Origin: Tubiluchus corallicola | Lineage: Eukaryota; Animalia; Priapulida | Length of the DNA stretch: 6,441 nucleotides | Direction: 5' to 3' | NCBI GenBank assembly: GCA_030141605.1 | Contig: JAQGDQ010002247.1 | Span: forward strand, 1-6,441 | In this document: in pieces, positions 1 through 6,441 of the stretch | Position numbering within the stretch: the stretch's first letter is position 1 | How the letters are laid out: each line of letters starts with the position of its first letter | Program-made: the position numbers and the translations under genes | Notes under the pieces: model-generated | The model's input: the letters and a program-made list of their open reading frames with translations, nothing else | Database searches by the model: none | Told to the model about the DNA's origin: nothing

Positions 1-8
1 CTATTGCT

Positions 9-2468
9 ATATAGTGAGTGATAGGTGCATAGTTGGAGGTGACATGAACGGACATGTAGGAAGTGGAAATAATGCAATAAGACGGATTCATGGTGGAAAT
101 TCATATGGAGAGGGAAATGGAAACAAAATAATCGACGTGGCATTAGCCTTTGACTTGGTGATAGGAAATACCATATTCTGCAAGAAAAATGAACACCTAA
201 TAACCTACCGTAGTGGGGATAGAGAAAGCCAGATAGACTTCCTACTCTACGGACGGAGAGACATCAAAGAGATAAGAAATTGCAAGGTTATACCAGGAGA
301 CCACGTAGCAGCACAACACCGCCTGATGGTTATGGATCTCACCATAGCTGTTACACGTAGGCAGAAAAGGAAAGTCATGACGGAGAAAAGGATTAAATGG
401 TTCAAACTAAAAGAGCAGAGACTTAACCAACTCTTTAAAGACAGATTCCTCAGAGAGGTGGACTACGAAATGGAAGAAATAAACGAATGGTGGAACAGGC
501 TGAGTGAAAATATTATAAGGACGGGAAAAGAAGTCCTCTGGGAAAGTAGTGGTAAAATATGGGAAAACAGAGAAACATGGTGGTTTGGAGAAGAGGTGCA
601 GCAGAAAGTAAAAGAGAAGAAAATGGCAAAGAAAAGATGGGAAGAAACCAAGTTGGACAGGGACAGAGAGTATTACAAACAGTGTTGCAAGGAGACGAAA
701 AGAACTGTAGCTGTAGCAAAAGCGGAGGCGTATGACAACCTTTATGAAGAGTTGGACACCAAGGAAGGACAGGGGAGAGTTTTCAAGTTGGTGAAGCTGA
801 GAAATAAGAATACAAAGGACATTAGACATATAAGGCAGATCAAAGATGAAAGGGGGCAAGTAATACGAAAAGAAAGCGATGTCCTGAGGAGGTGGAAGGA
901 ATACTACGAGAAGCTGCTGAACGAGGAAAATGAAAGACTGGTTAGGGATGATGGAGAACCGAATGAACTGGAGGTAACAGGGGTGGCAAGACAGGAGGTG
1001 GAGTTAGCATTTAAGAAAATGAAAAATGGCAAATCTACGGGACCGGACGGAATACCGGTGGAAGTTTGGAAAGCCTTAGGAGAAGAAGGAATTGACATAC
1101 TGCACCAACTGATGAGAGAAATAGTGGAGAGAGAGGTAATACCGGAAAAATGGAGGGAAAGTACTCTGATACCGATTTTTAAAGAGAAGGGAGACATCCA
1201 GGACTGCGGAAATTATCAGGGGATTAAACTGATGTCCCACACCCTGAAACTGTTCGAAAGAATTCTGGATAATAGATTGAGACAGGTGGTACACATAGGA
1301 CGGCAACAGATTGGATTCATGAAGGGACTTGGAACGGTTGACGGTATATTCACACTTCGACAGAATATAGAGAAACACCAGGAAAAGCAAAGGGCACTAC
1401 ACATAGCTTTCATAGACCTAGAGAAAGCATATGATAGGGTACCACGGCAAGAAGTGTGGAGAGGTCTGAGGGAGAGAGGAGTGCCAGAAAAATATGTAAG
1501 AATAGTTCAAGAATGCTACAAGAACGTGACAACTAAAGTCCGGAGTACAGTTGGTATAACAGACAGTTTCCAAGTAAAAGTCGGCTTACATCAAGGATCG
1601 GCACTAAGCCCCCTACTGTTCAACATAGTGTTTGATGTCATCACAGAGAGTGTAAGGGGAAATCCACCATGGTGTGTGCTGTATGCGGATGACATCGCTA
1701 TAGTGGCTGAGAGTAGAGAAATACTGGAAGGAAAGTTAGAAGCATGGAGAGCCGCTTTGGAGAGCAGAGGAATGAGGATAAGTAGATCCAAAACGGAGTA
1801 CCTTACGACAGACATGAATGGAAACCAACGAGAAACAATAAGACTGAATGGGGCAGAGTTGAAAAGAGTAAAGACCTTTAAGTATCTGGGTTCAATGATA
1901 GACGAGACTGCAGGAATGGAAAAGGAGGTGAATTTCAGGATTCAGTGTGGTTGGAATAACTGGCGAAAAGTTTCAGGGGTGATATGCGATAAGAGGATTC
2001 CAGCGAGACTTAAGGGTAAAGTTCACAAAGCAGTGGTCAGACCTGCCCTAATATATGGGCTGGAAGCAGCACCCCTAAAGAAGACCGAGGAGAAGAAAAT
2101 GGATGTGGCGGAGATGAGGATGTTGAGATGGATAGTGGGAGTAACAAGAAGGGACAAAATCAGGAATAGTAATATTAGAGGAACAGTGAAAGTAGTGGAA
2201 GCCTCGAAATAGATACAAGAGGCAAGATTTAGATGGTATGGGCACCTGAGAAGAAGAGTCGGGGAAGATCACGTGGGAAGGGAGGTCATGGAAATGGAAG
2301 TGCTGGGAAATAGAAGAAGAGGACGACCCAAGCTGAGATGGTTCGAATGTATTAACGGAGACCTTAGAGAGAAGAACATAAATGTAGAGATGGCCAACAA
2401 CAGGAATGCATGGAGACGACTTATTCACAACGGCGACCCCGCATAGGGAAAAGCTGAGAAGAAGAAGA
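9..2468 (+). mobile_element. RTE-clade non-LTR retrotransposon (LINE), 5'-incomplete, copy A
   Basis: Single long frame with the C-terminal part of an APE-type endonuclease (GGDMNGHVG, TY..SQIDFLL, QHRLMV), then RT motifs (GPDGIP, PIFKEKGD, NYQGIKLMSH, FIDLEKAYDRV, QGSALSPLLF, YADD at 1682-1693, FKYLGS). RTE-type C-terminus (RWYGHL..RRRGRPKLRW), very short 3' UTR and (AGA/GAA)4 tail at 2457-2468. The 5' boundary is approximate. Confidence 0.95.
14..2446 (+). pseudogene. RTE endonuclease/reverse transcriptase ORF with premature stop and missing N-terminus
   Basis: ORF 14..2212 ends at TAG 2210-2212, but the same frame continues IQEARFRWYGHLRRR...LIHNGDPA to TAG 2444-2446. It begins mid-endonuclease, so the GTG at 14 is unlikely to be a real start. 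Confidence 0.9.
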
Positions 2469-3124
2469 TTGCTCTATGTGTAGTGCGCATGCGCGTTAAA
2501 ATAATACACACCAGTTAGAGGGTACAGAAGACGACGTTTTGCGTACTCTATTGCTCTGTGTGTAGTGCGCATGCGCGTTAAAATAATACACACCAGTTAG
2601 AGGGTACAAAAGACGACGTTTTGCGTACTCTATTGCTCTATGTGTAGTGCGCATGCGCGTTAAAATAATACACACCAGTTAGAGGGTACAAAAGACGACG
2701 TTTTGCGTACTCTATTGCTCTATGTGTAGTGCGCATGCGCGTTAAAATAATACACACCAGTTAGCGGGTACAGAAGACGACGTTTTGCGTACTCTATTGC
2801 TCTGTGTGTAGTGCGCATGCGCGTTAAAATAATACACACCAGTTAGAGGGTACAAAAGACGACGTTTTGCGTACTCTATTGCTCTGTGTGTAGTGCGCAT
2901 GCGCGTTAAAATAATACACACCAGTTAGAGGGTACAAAAGACGACGTTTTGCGTACTCTATTGCTCTATGTCTAGTGCGCATGCGCGTTAAAATAATACA
3001 CACCAGTTAGAGGGTACAGAAGACGACGTTTTGCGTACTCTATTGCTCTATGTGTAGTGCGCATGCGCGTTAAAATAATACACACCAGTTAGAGGGTACA
3101 GAAGACGACGTTTTGCGTACTCCA
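2469..3124. repeat. Tandem array, 8 x 82 bp (left)
   Basis: Units start at 2469, 2551, 2633, 2715, 2797, 2879, 2961, 3043. Consensus ttgctctRtgtgtagtgcgcatgcgcgttaaaataatacacaccagttagagggtacaRaagacgacgttttgcgtactcta. No indels and no spacers. Confidence 0.98.
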
Positions 3125-3230
3125 TTTCTCCATTTAATTCCCAACATTGTCCAGTCATGTAATAATCAAGATTGGCCCTGCTGGTGCCCCCTTGCGTACG
3201 AATCTGGTCCACCCATCTTGGTGCACAAAC
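3086..3230 (-). CDS. Internal exon of integrin alpha-like gene (beta-propeller), 145 nt, phase 0 to phase 1
   Basis: Acceptor ctgttcag|GTT at 3231/3230. Translates VCAPRWVDQIRTQGGTSRANLDYYMTGQCWELNGEMEYAKRRLLYPLT+G. The CAP..G.C pattern follows QWLG in integrin alphas. Donor CTG|gtgtgt at 3086/3085 lies inside repeat unit 8, and an in-frame TAG follows shortly after. Splices in frame to the 3663-3500 exon across a 269-nt GT-AG intron. Confidence 0.82.
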
Positions 3231-3499
3231 CTGAACAGTTTAATAATTTTGAAGTTTATGAGAGTCCAGATAATTCCTTTCTTGTTCTTGATTGTGGTTA
3301 TTGTAGTGAAGACTTTCAGAAACCATTTTGAACATGATCTTATTTACTACTGCACAACTCTAGCTATGAAGAAGTTCTGGAGGTAATTGCTAAGACACTA
3401 GATCAAGTAGAATACTGGTGAACTTTATTTTTATAGTTCATTAATTAATATAGTTAATCATTAATAACACTATACATCACGAAGCACGCTATTTCATAC

Positions 3500-3663
3500 C
3501 GTAATTTTTCCCAGCACATCATCCTGCCTAACAGCAATACTTGCTCCTAACCACTGGTAGTCCTTCTTGTTCCAATAAGACGTCTCATGGACAGATATCG
3601 TACAGACGTCACCTGATGGCACATTGCAAGGAATTTGTCCAGGGAGTGGACAGCATGTATTAC
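3500..3663 (-). CDS. Internal exon of integrin alpha-like gene, 164 nt, phase 1 to phase 0
   Basis: Acceptor ttttcttgcacag| at 3664/3663 and donor ACG|gtatga at 3500/3499. Peptide xNTCCPLPGQIPCNVPSGDVCTISVHETSYWNKKDYQWLGASIAVRQDDVLGKIT contains the integrin alpha K..QWLG.S motif. Part of ORF 3494..3706. Confidence 0.85.
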
Positions 3664-3798
3664 CTGTGCAAGAAAAGTTCATCATCGCAAAAACAATCGG
3701 TAACATTTCACGATATTGTGTAAGTAAAGTTATTGAACTATGAATTTATTTTCACACATCAAAATACAATATCAAACACATTAACAAACTTTAAATAA

Positions 3799-4078
3799 AA
3801 TAATTTGAGTAGTGCGAGGTGAGTGTACAACCATACGTTTATTAACACACTCACCTTATTTAAATGAAAAAATGATTATAGTTATGCATGCTTCTGTAGA
3901 TAACTTAATGTAAATAAGGATGAAGTAAATGATGTAATAATTTGAGTAGTGCGAGGTGAGTGTACGACCATACGGTCATTAACACACTCGCCTTATTTAA
4001 ATGAAAAAATGATTATAGTTATGCATGCTTCTGTAGATAACTTAATGTAAATAAGGATGAAGTAAATGATGTAATAAT
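3799..4078. repeat. Direct tandem duplication, 2 x 137 bp, each with a hairpin
   Basis: 3799-3935 and 3936-4072 (plus aataat to 4078) differ at 4 positions. Each contains aggtgagtgt-N20-acactcRcct. Confidence 0.95.
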
Positions 4079-4211
4079 AGCAATGATATAAGAGCAATAA
4101 ACCTGAAAGTTGAGAAAGGAAAACATAATATGTAATTACGACCTTGAGTGAGCCTTAAAGAGTGAAATTTTTTTTTAAATAGTTACGAATATGAATTATG
4201 TGATTATCTGT

Positions 4212-4609
4212 CAATGCACCACTTACTTGTATTACAATGCACCATATTGCTTACTTGTATATACAATGATATACAATGCACCACTTACTTGTATTACAAT
4301 GCACCATATTACTTACCTGTATATACAAGGCACAACTTACTTGTATTACAATGCACCATATTGTTTACTTGTATATACAATGATATACAATGCACCACTT
4401 ACTTGTATTACAATGCACCACATTACTTACTTGTATATACAATGATATACAATGCAGCACTTACTTGTATTACAATGCACCATATTACTTACTTGTATAT
4501 ACAATGATATACAATGCAGCACTTACTTTTTTACAATGCACCATATTGCTTACTTGTATATACAATGATATACAATGCACCATATTACTTACTTGTATAT
4601 ACAATGATA
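4212..4609. repeat. Compound AT-rich minisatellite with ~62-bp higher-order unit
   Basis: Built from related sub-units acaatgcaccacttacttgtatt (23 bp), acaatgcaccatattRcttacttgtatat (29 bp) and acaatgatat (10 bp). caatgcaccactt recurs at 4212 and 4274; some cycles drop a sub-unit. Confidence 0.93.
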
Positions 4610-4610
4610 G

Positions 4611-5270
4611 AAGTGGAGAAATGGAGTACGCAAAACGTCGTCTTCTACCCTCTAACTGGTGTATTATTTTAACGCGCATGTGCACTACACATAGAGCAAT
4701 AGAGTACGCAAAACGTCGTCTTTTGTACCCTCTAACTGGTGTGTATTATTTTAACGCGCATGCGCACTAGACATAGAGCAATAGAGTACGCAAAACGTCG
4801 TCTTTTGTACCCTCTAACTGGTGTGTATTATTTTAACGCGCATGCGCACTACACATAGAGCAATAGAGTACGCAAAACGTCGTCTTTTGTACCCTCTAAC
4901 TGTGTATTATTTTAACGCGCATGCGCACTACACACAGAGCAATAGAGTACGCAAAACGTCGTCTTCTGTACCCGCTAACTGGTGTGTATTATTTTAACGC
5001 GCATGCGCACTACACATAGAGCAATAGAGTACGCAAAACGTCGTCTTTTGTACCCTCTAACTGGTGTGTATTATTTTAACGCGCATGCGCACTACACATA
5101 GAGCAATAGAGTACGCAAAACGTCGTCTTTTGTACCCTCTAACTGGTGTGTATTATTTTAACGCGCATGCGCACTACACACAGAGCAATAGAGTACGCAA
5201 AACGTCGTCTTCTGTACCCTCTAACTGGTGTGTATTATTTTAACGCGCATGCGCACTACACATAGAGCAA
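4611..5270. repeat. Inverted copy of the 8 x 82-bp array plus ~11 bp of adjacent integrin exon sequence
   Basis: Reverse complement of 2469-3135. Unit boundaries at 5270, 5188, 5106, 5024, 4942, 4863, 4781, 4699. Unit 5 has a 3-bp deletion and unit 8 has two 2-bp deletions. Confidence 0.97.
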
Positions 5271-6441
5271 TCTTCTTCTTCCCAGCTTTTCCCTATGCGG
5301 GGTCGCCATTGTGAATAAGTCTTCTCCATGCATTCCTGTTGTTGGCCATCTCTTCATTTATGTTCTTCTCTCTAAGGTCTCCGTTAATACATTCAAACCA
5401 TCTCAGCTTGGGTCGTCCTCTTCTTCTATTTCCCAGCACTTCCATTTCCATGTCCTCCCTTCCCGTATGATCTTCCCCGACTCTTCTTCTCAGGTGCCCA
5501 TACCATCGCAATCTTGCCTCTTGTATCTTTCGAGGCTTCCACTACTTTCACTGTTCCTCTAATATTACTATTCCTGATTTTATCCCTTCTTGTTACTCCC
5601 ACCATCCATCTCAACATCCTCATCTCCGCCACATCCATTTTCTTCTCTTCGGTCTTCTTTAGAGGTGCTGCTTCCAGCCCATATATTAGGGCGGGTCTGA
5701 CCACTGCTTTGTGAACTTTACCTTTAAGTCTCGCTGGAATCCTCTTATCGCATATCACACCCGAAACTTTTCGCCAGTTATTCCAACCACACTGAATCCT
5801 GAAATTCACCTCCTTTTCCATTCCTGCAGTCTCGTCTATCATTGAACCCAGATACTTAAAGGTCTTTACTCTTTTCAACTCTGCCCCGTTCAATCTTATT
5901 GTTTCTCGTTGGTCCCCATTCATGTCTGTCGTAAGATACTCCGTTTTGGATCTACTAATCCTCATTCCTCTGCTCTCCAATGCGGCTCTCCATGCTTCTA
6001 ATTTTCCTTCCAGTGTTTCTCTACTCTCAGCCACTATAGCGATGTCATCCGCATACAAACACCATGGTGGATTTCCCCTTACACTCTCTGTGATGACATC
6101 AAACACTATGTTGAACAGTAGGGGGCTTAGTGCCGATCCTTGATGTAAGCCGACTTTTACTTGGAAACTGTCTGTTATGCCAACTGTACTCCGGACTTTA
6201 GTTGTCACGTTCTTGTAGCATTCTTGGACTATTCTTACATATTTTTCTGGCACTCCTCTCTCCCTCAGACCTCTCCACACTTCTTGCCGTGGTACCCTAT
6301 CATATGCTTTCTCTAGGTCTATGAAAGCTATATGTAGTGCCCTTTGCTTTTCCTGGTGTTTCTCTATATTCTGTCGAAGTGTGAATATACCGTCAACCGT
6401 TCCAAGTCCCTTCATGAATCCCAACTGTTGCCGTCCTATGT
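5271..6441 (-). mobile_element. RTE-clade non-LTR retrotransposon, copy B (runs off the right edge)
   Basis: Reverse complement of 1293-2468 at roughly 96-97% identity (manual). (GAA)n tail at 5271-5281, stop at 5293-5295, YADD at 6044-6055. Confidence 0.95.
5293..6441 (-). pseudogene. RTE reverse transcriptase ORF, frameshifted
   Basis: ORFs 5426..6424 and 5293..5511 are one RT frame split by a 2-bp deletion near 5527-5530. There is also an in-frame 3-bp loss just before YADD (WCLYADD vs WCVLYADD). Confidence 0.9.

What the first reader, a model, noticed from the sequence alone, without database searches (positions are those of the whole stretch)
2469..3230. Satellite born from an exon-intron junction: eight tandem copies of an integrin splice donor
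Seen: the minus-strand frame VCAPRW...GQCWELNGEM runs without a break into repeat unit 8 (EYAKRRLLYPLT) and meets CTG|gtgtgt there. The 82-bp unit therefore equals the last ~36 nt of the exon plus the start of the intron. Knowledge: integrin alpha propeller blades continue past G.C to a Pro-containing segment, which fits this peptide. Inference: the array arose locally from the host gene, leaving the exon with 8 identical competing donors. Skipping directly to a distal donor would include an in-frame TAG (cac tac aca tag), a potential NMD route.
Basis: partly seen in the sequence, partly recalled or inferred. Interest (0 to 1): 0.8.

Follow-up and report, generated by a model that had tools for sequence, protein, structure and literature searches.

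The report
Repeated splice donor, mirrored between retrotransposons
An 82-base piece that likely spans the end of an integrin-like exon and its splice signal is repeated eight times, a known and likely harmless kind of repeat; a backwards copy of the whole run lies 1.5 kb away on a second jumping-gene copy, likely a one-off repair copy or an assembly error, and is predicted to fold over the splice signal if it is real.

Summary
The array is real: 8 x 82 bp at 2468-3123. All eight units carry CTG|gtgtgt, and an in-frame stop at 3050-3048 lies ahead of the seven distal donors. In another individual's contigs the unit has only about 8 times the exon's depth, so it is local, not a genome-wide satellite. 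This is a 'mirage' minisatellite, known from human F7, CBS, LMNB2, PDGF and amphioxus, where the first donor is used alone or with the next one or two. The integrin name rests on motifs; no profile search hit it and no RNA showed splicing.

A second eight-unit array lies inverted at 4614-5271, and each array abuts the (GAA)n tail of an RTE-type LINE. The arrays match unit by unit (3 substitutions in 658 nt). The two LINEs are independent copies (33 in 1170; 22 synonymous, 10 not). So the array was likely copied once onto the second LINE's tail by a repair template switch, or it is a chimera; the other individual's depth fits one array. If real, the copy is predicted to pair with the donors around a 309-nt in-frame two-exon cassette. 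Mostly ordinary.

The parts
1..2467 (+). LINE-A: RTE-type non-LTR retrotransposon, 5' part outside the window; one EN+RT frame 2-2446 with a nonsense codon at 2210-2212; 21-nt 3' UTR ending in a (GAA)3G tail at 2458-2467
   Evidence: PF00078 E 2e-35; 80% identical to the 987-aa P0005 over 810 aa; tail junction
2468..3123 (-). Array A: 8 x 82 bp; each unit = last 37-38 nt of exon B + first 44 nt of the intron; begins flush with the LINE-A tail
   Evidence: tandem junction also in sample S1 contigs
3078..3088 (-). Most upstream donor CTG|gtgtgtat (first intron base 3085), likely the one used; seven identical donors follow at 82-nt steps
   Evidence: best U1 match of 11 GT sites between 3229 and 3041; use inferred from PMC1557585
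3048..3050 (-). In-frame TAG reached by any transcript that passes the first donor and runs on to a distal one
3123..3133 (-). Imperfect direct repeat of the unit end on the exon side (8 of 11 matches); likely the microhomology that seeded the first duplication
   Evidence: 11 of 40 matches further upstream
3086..3230 (-). Predicted exon B, 145 nt, phase 0 to phase 1, integrin-alpha-like beta-propeller segment
   Evidence: acceptor and frame; 4 of 4 SNPs synonymous; integrin motifs recalled
3231..3499 (-). Predicted 269-nt GT-AG intron; holds a short dispersed repeat at about 3365-3402
   Evidence: depth about 1000 against 8
3500..3663 (-). Predicted exon A, 164 nt, phase 1 to phase 0, with a K-x-x-QWLG-x-S motif; in frame with exon B (102 codons, no stop)
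   Evidence: a contig of sample S3 matches 3497-3563 and diverges 3 nt into the intron; ITGA7 peptide in PMC13589951
3799..4078 (.). 137-bp tandem duplication, 2 copies, 97%
4212..4609 (.). 62-bp AT-rich minisatellite, about 6 copies; ends at the junction with array B
4610..4613 (+). Four letters (GAAG) between the 62-bp array and array B that belong to neither
4614..5271 (+). Array B: inverted copy of array A plus 10 nt of exon B flank (3132-3123); antisense to the donors in the gene's pre-mRNA; 3 substitutions and 3 deletions of 2-3 nt against array A
5272..6441 (-). LINE-B: second copy of the same RTE family, tail-to-tail with LINE-A; in-frame 3-nt deletion next to the YADD motif and a 2-nt frameshift; tail flush with array B

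Best explanation
The 82-bp array is likely a 'mirage' minisatellite, born on the spot by slippage from the end of a predicted integrin-alpha exon and the start of the next intron, with the first donor likely the one used; the whole array was likely copied once more, backwards, onto the tail of a neighbouring LINE copy by a DNA-repair template switch. Steps: (1) shown: eight units, eight identical donors, a stop ahead of the distal seven, low copy number. (2) Inferred: an 8-of-11 repeat 82 nt apart allowed a first duplication, and unequal exchange or slippage grew it to eight. (3) Inferred from F7 and amphioxus: the most upstream donor wins, and rare distal use gives stop-containing RNA that is degraded, so the array is tolerated rather than a switch. 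(4) Shown: LINE-A and LINE-B are independent insertions, while arrays A and B are near-identical in register. (5) Inferred: a broken end at the LINE-B tail invaded the 97%-identical LINE-A, was extended about 665 nt through array A into the exon, then let go and was end-joined to the 62-bp array with four added letters. (6) Predicted: in a transcript of this allele, array B and the LINE arms pair over at least 1.84 kb, covering the donors and looping out exons A and B (309 nt, in frame).
For: Array and donors. Copy number in run X2: exon contig depth 125, unit paths 500 and 403 (4.0x, 3.2x); expected 4.3 and 4 for one array, 7.6 and 9 for two; neighbouring dispersed repeats reach about 1,000 and 17,600 against 8 in X1. 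Flanking repeat 8 of 11, P about 0.002. Donor 8.5 of 11 against at most 5.5 for the ten other GT sites; a score this high arises in 1.5% of shuffles of a stretch that size. Exon B SNPs 4 of 4 synonymous, chance about 0.002. LINE arms: 33 substitutions in 1170 nt, 22 synonymous and 10 not, pN/pS 0.13, P 2e-8; arrays 3 in 658, Fisher P 3e-4. Each LINE has private changes against ten homologues, so neither is a family consensus. Unit variants are in the same order in both arrays, permutation P 6e-4. Array B carries the three exon-specific letters at 3131, 3127 and 3123, and the exon-unit junction occurs on two haplotypes of sample S1, so A is likely the source. LINE differences run to 10 nt before the tail, as expected if LINE-B kept its own sequence. 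Precedent: PMC1557585 and PMC3087553; repair routes reviewed in PMC7407515.
Against: No RNA shows which donor is used, or that the gene is expressed. No search recognised either exon as integrin, and conservation of the peptide inside the unit was not testable. Array B has no independent support: none of the 5 contigs of X1 or 3 of X2 laid on 3042-3350 shows its junction, and depth fits one array, although contigs drop variants. All five indels between the arms are deletions in arm B, which fits error-prone synthesis but also poor consensus. Two coincidences are unexplained: the array ends flush with the LINE-A tail, and array B's breakpoint falls within 1 nt of the edge of the flanking repeat. 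One contig of S1 has a 1-nt deletion in exon B at 3187 (depth 8.1), so the gene may be decaying on some haplotypes.
Confidence: 0.6

Rival explanations
1. Array A is a real mirage, but array B is a library or assembly chimera: an inverted template switch during amplification or a chimeric long read, joined to a different LINE copy through the shared tail.
For: Sample S1 fits one array and shows no B junction. All five indels are deletions in arm B. Amplification chimeras are mostly inverted and intramolecular (PMC1855051, abstract); whether this genome was amplified is not known.
Against: A single fold-back would copy LINE-A, yet LINE-B is a distinct copy with a synonymous-biased difference pattern and private lesions right up to the tail, so two switches are needed. 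Two of the three array substitutions swap one unit variant for another, which looks like array turnover rather than random error.
Confidence: 0.2
2. The LINE machinery made the repeats. RTE endonuclease nicks 82 nt apart gave a long target-site duplication that seeded array A, and/or LINE-B's reverse transcriptase first copied the array (from LINE-A read-through RNA or nearby DNA) and then jumped onto its own RNA at the GAA tail.
For: Array A begins flush with the LINE-A tail, with no spacer; a random insertion would hit that phase about 1-3 times in 82. Both arrays meet the tail at the same base. The age of the array copy (3 in 658) cannot be told apart from the age of the LINE copies (a few private changes each).
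Against: The 8-of-11 flanking repeat explains the first duplication without a LINE, and two other tandem arrays in the same region (137 x 2, 62 x 6) show that duplications are common here. RTE target duplications in PMC2887409 are 10 and 20 bp in the passages read. The LINE 5' ends, where a duplication would show, lie outside the window.
Confidence: 0.12
3. The unit is not host exon. A foreign array, carried with a LINE, was inserted into exon B at about 3133, and the open frame and donor inside it are chance or exonisation.
For: Both arrays end within 1 nt of the same point (3132/3133). The frame stays open by chance in 40% of shuffles. No orthologue confirms the peptide. One S1 haplotype has a frameshift in exon B.
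Against: About eight units per exon in S1 leave no room for a source locus. A neutral tail could not stay 0.5% diverged while synonymous LINE sites diverged 8.9% (P 2e-10). A donor this good is expected in 1.5% of shuffles. No loose end at 3133 in 8 of 8 S1 contigs laid.
Confidence: 0.08
4. One reading: the eight donors compete, and use of a distal one sends a sizeable share of the RNA to nonsense-mediated decay, tuning integrin level.
For: All distal donors are intact and include the stop. In human 6-16 and CBS, two pseudo-sites are used besides the authentic one (PMC1557585 introduction).
Against: In F7, LMNB2 and PDGF only the first donor is used, and amphioxus mirages do not disturb splicing. 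The units are 97% alike, so intact donors show youth rather than selection.
Confidence: 0.1

Closest known systems
Splice-donor minisatellites of human F7 IVS7 (37 bp x 5-9), 6-16, CBS IVS13, LMNB2 (100 bp x 10-15), PDGF intron 4 (81 bp x 16-18). PMC1557585: abstract and 12 passages read
   Same: The first unit spans an exon-intron boundary, so identical donors are repeated in the intron; unit size and copy number are in the same range.
   Different: Invertebrate-type genome; a longer exonic share (37-38 nt against 4 nt in F7); the array is flush with a LINE tail and has an inverted copy upstream. Donor use is untested here.
Amphioxus 'mirages' (Adh3, globins BflGb6 and BflGb9). PMC3087553: 7 passages read
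   Same: Tandem copies of an exon-intron boundary, a few units long, that carry splice signals.
   Different: The passages read give the mechanism as unclear and mention neither a LINE nor an inverted copy; here an 8-of-11 flanking repeat points to slippage.
RTE-clade non-LTR retrotransposons, e.g. HmRTE-e01. PMC2887409: 12 passages read
   Same: One frame of about 990 aa with endonuclease and RT, a very short 3' UTR, a GAA-repeat tail.
   Different: Both copies here are damaged and cut by the window; clade placement was not tested with a tree; target duplications are not visible.
Inverted intronic repeats that pair across exons (inverted Alu pairs). PMC11263572: 3 passages read
   Same: Inverted copies in the introns on both sides of exons can pair and favour back-splicing or change exon choice.
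   Different: The stem here would be at least 1.84 kb and 97-99% matched and would include the exon end and all eight donors; this is predicted only.

Membership tests
Mirage / splice-donor minisatellite | Head-to-tail array whose first unit spans an exon-intron boundary | tested here: met
   the boundary itself is predicted, not seen in RNA
Mirage / splice-donor minisatellite | Splice signal reiterated in the units | tested here: met
   8 of 8 units keep CTG|gtgtgt
Mirage / splice-donor minisatellite | Locus-specific, not a dispersed or genome-wide satellite | tested here: met
   Depth 3-4x per variant path and about 8x in total over the exon in X2; contig depth is a rough measure and no genome was held
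Mirage / splice-donor minisatellite | Authentic (first) donor used in the mRNA | not testable with these tools
   No RNA holder listed
Integrin alpha subunit | Propeller motif K-x-x-QWLG-x-S followed by GK | tested here: met
   End of exon A compared by eye with the ITGA7 beta-propeller peptide in a figure legend of PMC13589951
Integrin alpha subunit | Significant match to an integrin profile, structure or protein | tested here: inconclusive
   No hit for the 43-83 aa pieces in Pfam, PDB sequences or protein collections; the pieces are too short for absence to count
Integrin alpha subunit | Seven-blade propeller with FG-GAP/Ca sites, thigh and calf domains, membrane helix, GFFKR tail (recalled) | not testable with these tools
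   Only two exons lie in the window; no genome held
RTE-clade LINE | Single frame of about 1000 aa with AP-type endonuclease and RT | tested here: met
   PF00078 E 2e-35, weak PF14529 E 0.15; best homologue 987 aa with PF00078, PF14529, PF03372 at 80%
RTE-clade LINE | Very short 3' UTR ending in a simple repeat | tested here: met
   21 nt with (GAA)3G in both copies; compare PMC2887409
RTE-clade LINE | Placement in the RTE clade by RT phylogeny | not tested
   No tree built; the homologues carried no clade label
RTE-clade LINE | Target-site duplication on both sides | not testable with these tools
   5' ends lie outside the window
LINE with the array as its own 3' tail | Tail diverges at least as fast as synonymous sites and matches the LINE's copy number | tested here: not met
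   0.46% against 8.9%, P 2e-10; about eight units per exon in S1

The most novel reading that the evidence does not exclude
A LINE-driven splice switch: an RTE insertion seeds a splice-donor minisatellite at its own tail, and recombination between two tail-to-tail RTE copies then writes an antisense copy of the exon end and all eight donors upstream in the same transcript. The resulting stem of 1.84 kb or more hides every donor and turns two integrin propeller exons (309 nt, in frame) into a skipped or circularised cassette, and the same arms could invert the cassette in DNA.
Probability: 0.1. Interest if true: 0.6.

Novelty: new member of a known kind. Interest (0 to 1): 0.27.

Why it matters
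As a donor array it adds one more case to a described class, and the scan's own index already holds 105 findings with these words in at least 34 genomes. What is worth keeping is the history that can be read here: a visible slippage seed for a repeat class whose origin PMC3087553 calls unclear, and a likely copying event between two independent LINE copies that moved host exon sequence without any conversion of the LINE itself. If array B is real, the locus would be a natural test of whether a long cis-antisense stem can override first-donor selection. If it is a chimera, it is a warning about inverted duplications in this assembly.

Tried and rejected
No RNA holder was listed among 6 runs. 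Run X6, guessed to be RNA, had 1 contig on 3042-3798, on a dispersed repeat only: no evidence either way.

A lead that the unit is an insertion came from a contig of X4 that stops at 3131 with 19 unfitting letters. One search printed the letters; I recognise them from memory as an Illumina adapter end, so the lead was dropped. X4's lack of cover on the unit counts for nothing, as it also lacks exon A.

Integrin searches gave nothing: Pfam, 0 families for 4 of 4 short pieces; word-index searches, 0 hits; PDB, 0 hits and 1 hit at E 1.3; phmmer on 1.84 billion proteins, 2 hits, both repeat proteins scored over 13 and 7 weak stretches and judged spurious. The Atlas could not read the sequence. The metagenome scan gave 1 locus of 304 candidates, a 22-residue match judged spurious and not read. 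Three old integrin papers listed by the search did not hold the sequence in their readable text. A search for integrin intron phases listed nothing relevant, so the fit of exon B's phases to integrin genes is untested.

Rfam gave one match at E 0.05, far below its gathering score; no tRNA. The idea that arm B is a polished family consensus was rejected, because both copies have private changes. Allelic copies of one insertion were rejected by pN/pS 0.13. Sequence look-ups in earlier findings were blank. In one search the script's 'obs' line missed the donor by an edge error; the 8.5 comes.

Full report
Observation. Eight 82-bp units lie at 2468-3123. On the minus strand a frame that starts behind a good acceptor at 3231 runs open into the last unit. 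All eight units carry CTG|gtgtgt, and the first in-frame stop, at 3050-3048, is included if any of the seven distal donors is used. Public contigs of sample S1 hold the exon-unit junction on two haplotypes and the head-to-tail junction, so array A is not an assembly error.

The window is a large inverted repeat. Positions 1293-3132 pair with 6441-4614 around a 1.48-kb spacer. Each arm is the 3' part of a LINE followed, with no spacer, by an eight-unit array. The LINE has one endonuclease-RT frame (PF00078; 80% identical to a 987-aa protein) and a 21-nt 3' UTR ending in (GAA)3G. This matches the RTE description in PMC2887409 (passages); I built no tree.

The gene. The spacer holds two predicted exons on the minus strand, A (3663-3500) and B (3230-3086), separated by a 269-nt GT-AG intron and in frame for 102 codons. 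They behave as coding sequence: 4 of 4 SNPs that runs X1 and X4 show in exon B are synonymous (chance about 0.002). In exon A, 2 of 3 are synonymous; the third, R to K, is in a contig of another sample whose match ends 3 nt into the intron. The end of exon A resembles the ITGA7 propeller peptide printed in PMC13589951 (one passage), and the CAP-R-W and G-x-C motifs of exon B fit integrin alpha blades as I recall them. No search tool recognised either piece. I put integrin alpha at about 85%, on motifs alone. Earlier unchecked notes on this genome suggest a non-arthropod invertebrate; I did not test that.

Is the unit host sequence? Four results say yes. First, copy number: in run X2 the exon contig has depth 125 and the two unit paths 500 and 403, that is 4.0x and 3.2x, against 4.3 and 4 expected for one array and 7.6 and 9 for two. 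Dispersed repeats next door reach about 1,000 and 17,600 against 8 in X1. Contig depth is rough, but this is no genome-wide satellite. Second, the exon side of the array has an imperfect copy of the unit end, 8 of 11 letters at lag 82 (P about 0.002; 11 of 40 further up), the kind of seed that slippage needs. Third, the donor at 3085 is the best of 11 GT sites (8.5 of 11 against at most 5.5; 1.5% of shuffles). Fourth, none of 8 S1 contigs has a loose end at 3133. Against: the open frame alone is weak (40% by chance), all four SNPs lie upstream of the unit, and no orthologue could be compared. One S1 contig has a 1-nt deletion in exon B.

How the donors likely behave. PMC1557585 (abstract and passages) shows that in human F7 the repeated donors are functional but that only the most upstream is used. 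It lists LMNB2 and PDGF as the same, and 6-16 and CBS as using two further sites. PMC3087553 (passages) reports that amphioxus mirages do not disturb splicing. So first-donor use with rare, degraded by-products is the likely state. This is inference; no RNA holder was listed.

Where the second array came from. The LINE arms differ at 33 of 1170 sites. Of the 32 coding changes, 22 are synonymous and 10 are not (pN/pS 0.13, P 2e-8), and each copy has private changes against ten homologues. They are therefore independent insertions, not a duplication, alleles or a consensus. The arrays differ at 3 of 658 sites plus three short deletions, and their unit variants come in the same order (P 6e-4). 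A tail carried by the family is excluded (0.46% against 8.9% at synonymous sites, P 2e-10). Array B includes 10 nt of exon flank with the three exon-specific letters, then four foreign letters and the 62-bp array. The simplest route is one copying event from A to B, primed at the shared LINE tail: invasion, about 665 nt of synthesis, release and end-joining. Synthesis of several hundred nucleotides, template switches and templated insertions are reviewed in PMC7407515 (passages); the route itself is my inference. The alternative is a chimera: S1 fits one array, shows no B junction, and all five indels are deletions in arm B. Amplification chimeras are mostly inverted (PMC1855051, abstract), but a simple one would have copied LINE-A. 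A jump by the LINE's own reverse transcriptase also remains open; PMC13526784 (abstract only) shows that L1 intermediates recombine through shared sequence.

Predicted effect if array B is real. In a fold of the gene-sense RNA from 4790 to 2990, the exon end and first donor pair with array B (9 of the 11 donor positions); without arm B, 8 of 11 are paired in a much weaker fold, so the point is the length of the stem, not pairing as such. Exons A and B total 309 nt and begin and end in phase 1, so skipping both keeps the frame. Inverted intronic repeats are known to favour back-splicing (PMC11263572, passages). None of this was observed.

Unexplained. Array A ends flush with the LINE-A tail, and array B's breakpoint lies within 1 nt of the edge of the flanking repeat. 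The first could mean that the LINE's nick started the duplication; the 5' flank needed to test this is outside the window.

Comparison and verdict. The array works like, and meets the testable features of, a splice-donor minisatellite or mirage; donor use was not testable. The scan's index has 105 findings with these words in at least 34 genomes, one with mirrored arrays around an exon (unchecked notes). My paper searches on this class and on LINE-adjacent arrays showed no title or abstract start describing a mirage copied between two LINE copies, but I read only listings for most of them. No supplements were opened. New member of a known kind; interest 0.27. The bold reading, a LINE-written antisense block on the donors, has probability about 0.1.

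Noticed in passing
window 3731/3734 to beyond 3798: A very high-copy dispersed repeat begins here: summed depth up to 17,600 against 8 in X1, with many unrelated flanks ending at 3731-3736. Likely the end of a MITE or SINE; it runs up to the 137-bp duplication.
   Followed up: no
window 3365-3402: A short dispersed repeat of about 38 nt in the intron between exons A and B, depth about 1,000 against 8.
   Followed up: no
window 3187: One contig of sample S1 (X1, depth 8.1) lacks one base in exon B and carries the four synonymous SNPs; run X4 has the same SNPs without the deletion. A possible null allele or decayed paralogue.
   Followed up: partly
window 3497-3563: A 583-nt contig of sample S3 (same species label) matches the end of exon A with 4 differences and then has a different intron, whose 30 printed letters hold an 11-nt word twice: a paralogue or a diverged relative.
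   Followed up: partly
window 1394-1406 and 4682-4694 (and the other units): A 13-nt word in the LINE's RT region is identical to part of the 82-bp unit in donor orientation (family D5). About 0.02 expected by my rough count; probably chance.
   Followed up: partly
window 4212-4609: The 62-bp minisatellite ends 2 nt short of a full unit at the array-B junction. If array B was added later, the LINE-B tail may once have abutted this array as LINE-A abuts the 82-bp one.
   Followed up: no
window 2468-4609: Three unrelated tandem arrays (82 x 8, 137 x 2, 62 x 6) within 2.1 kb suggest a high local or genome-wide rate of tandem duplication.
   Followed up: no
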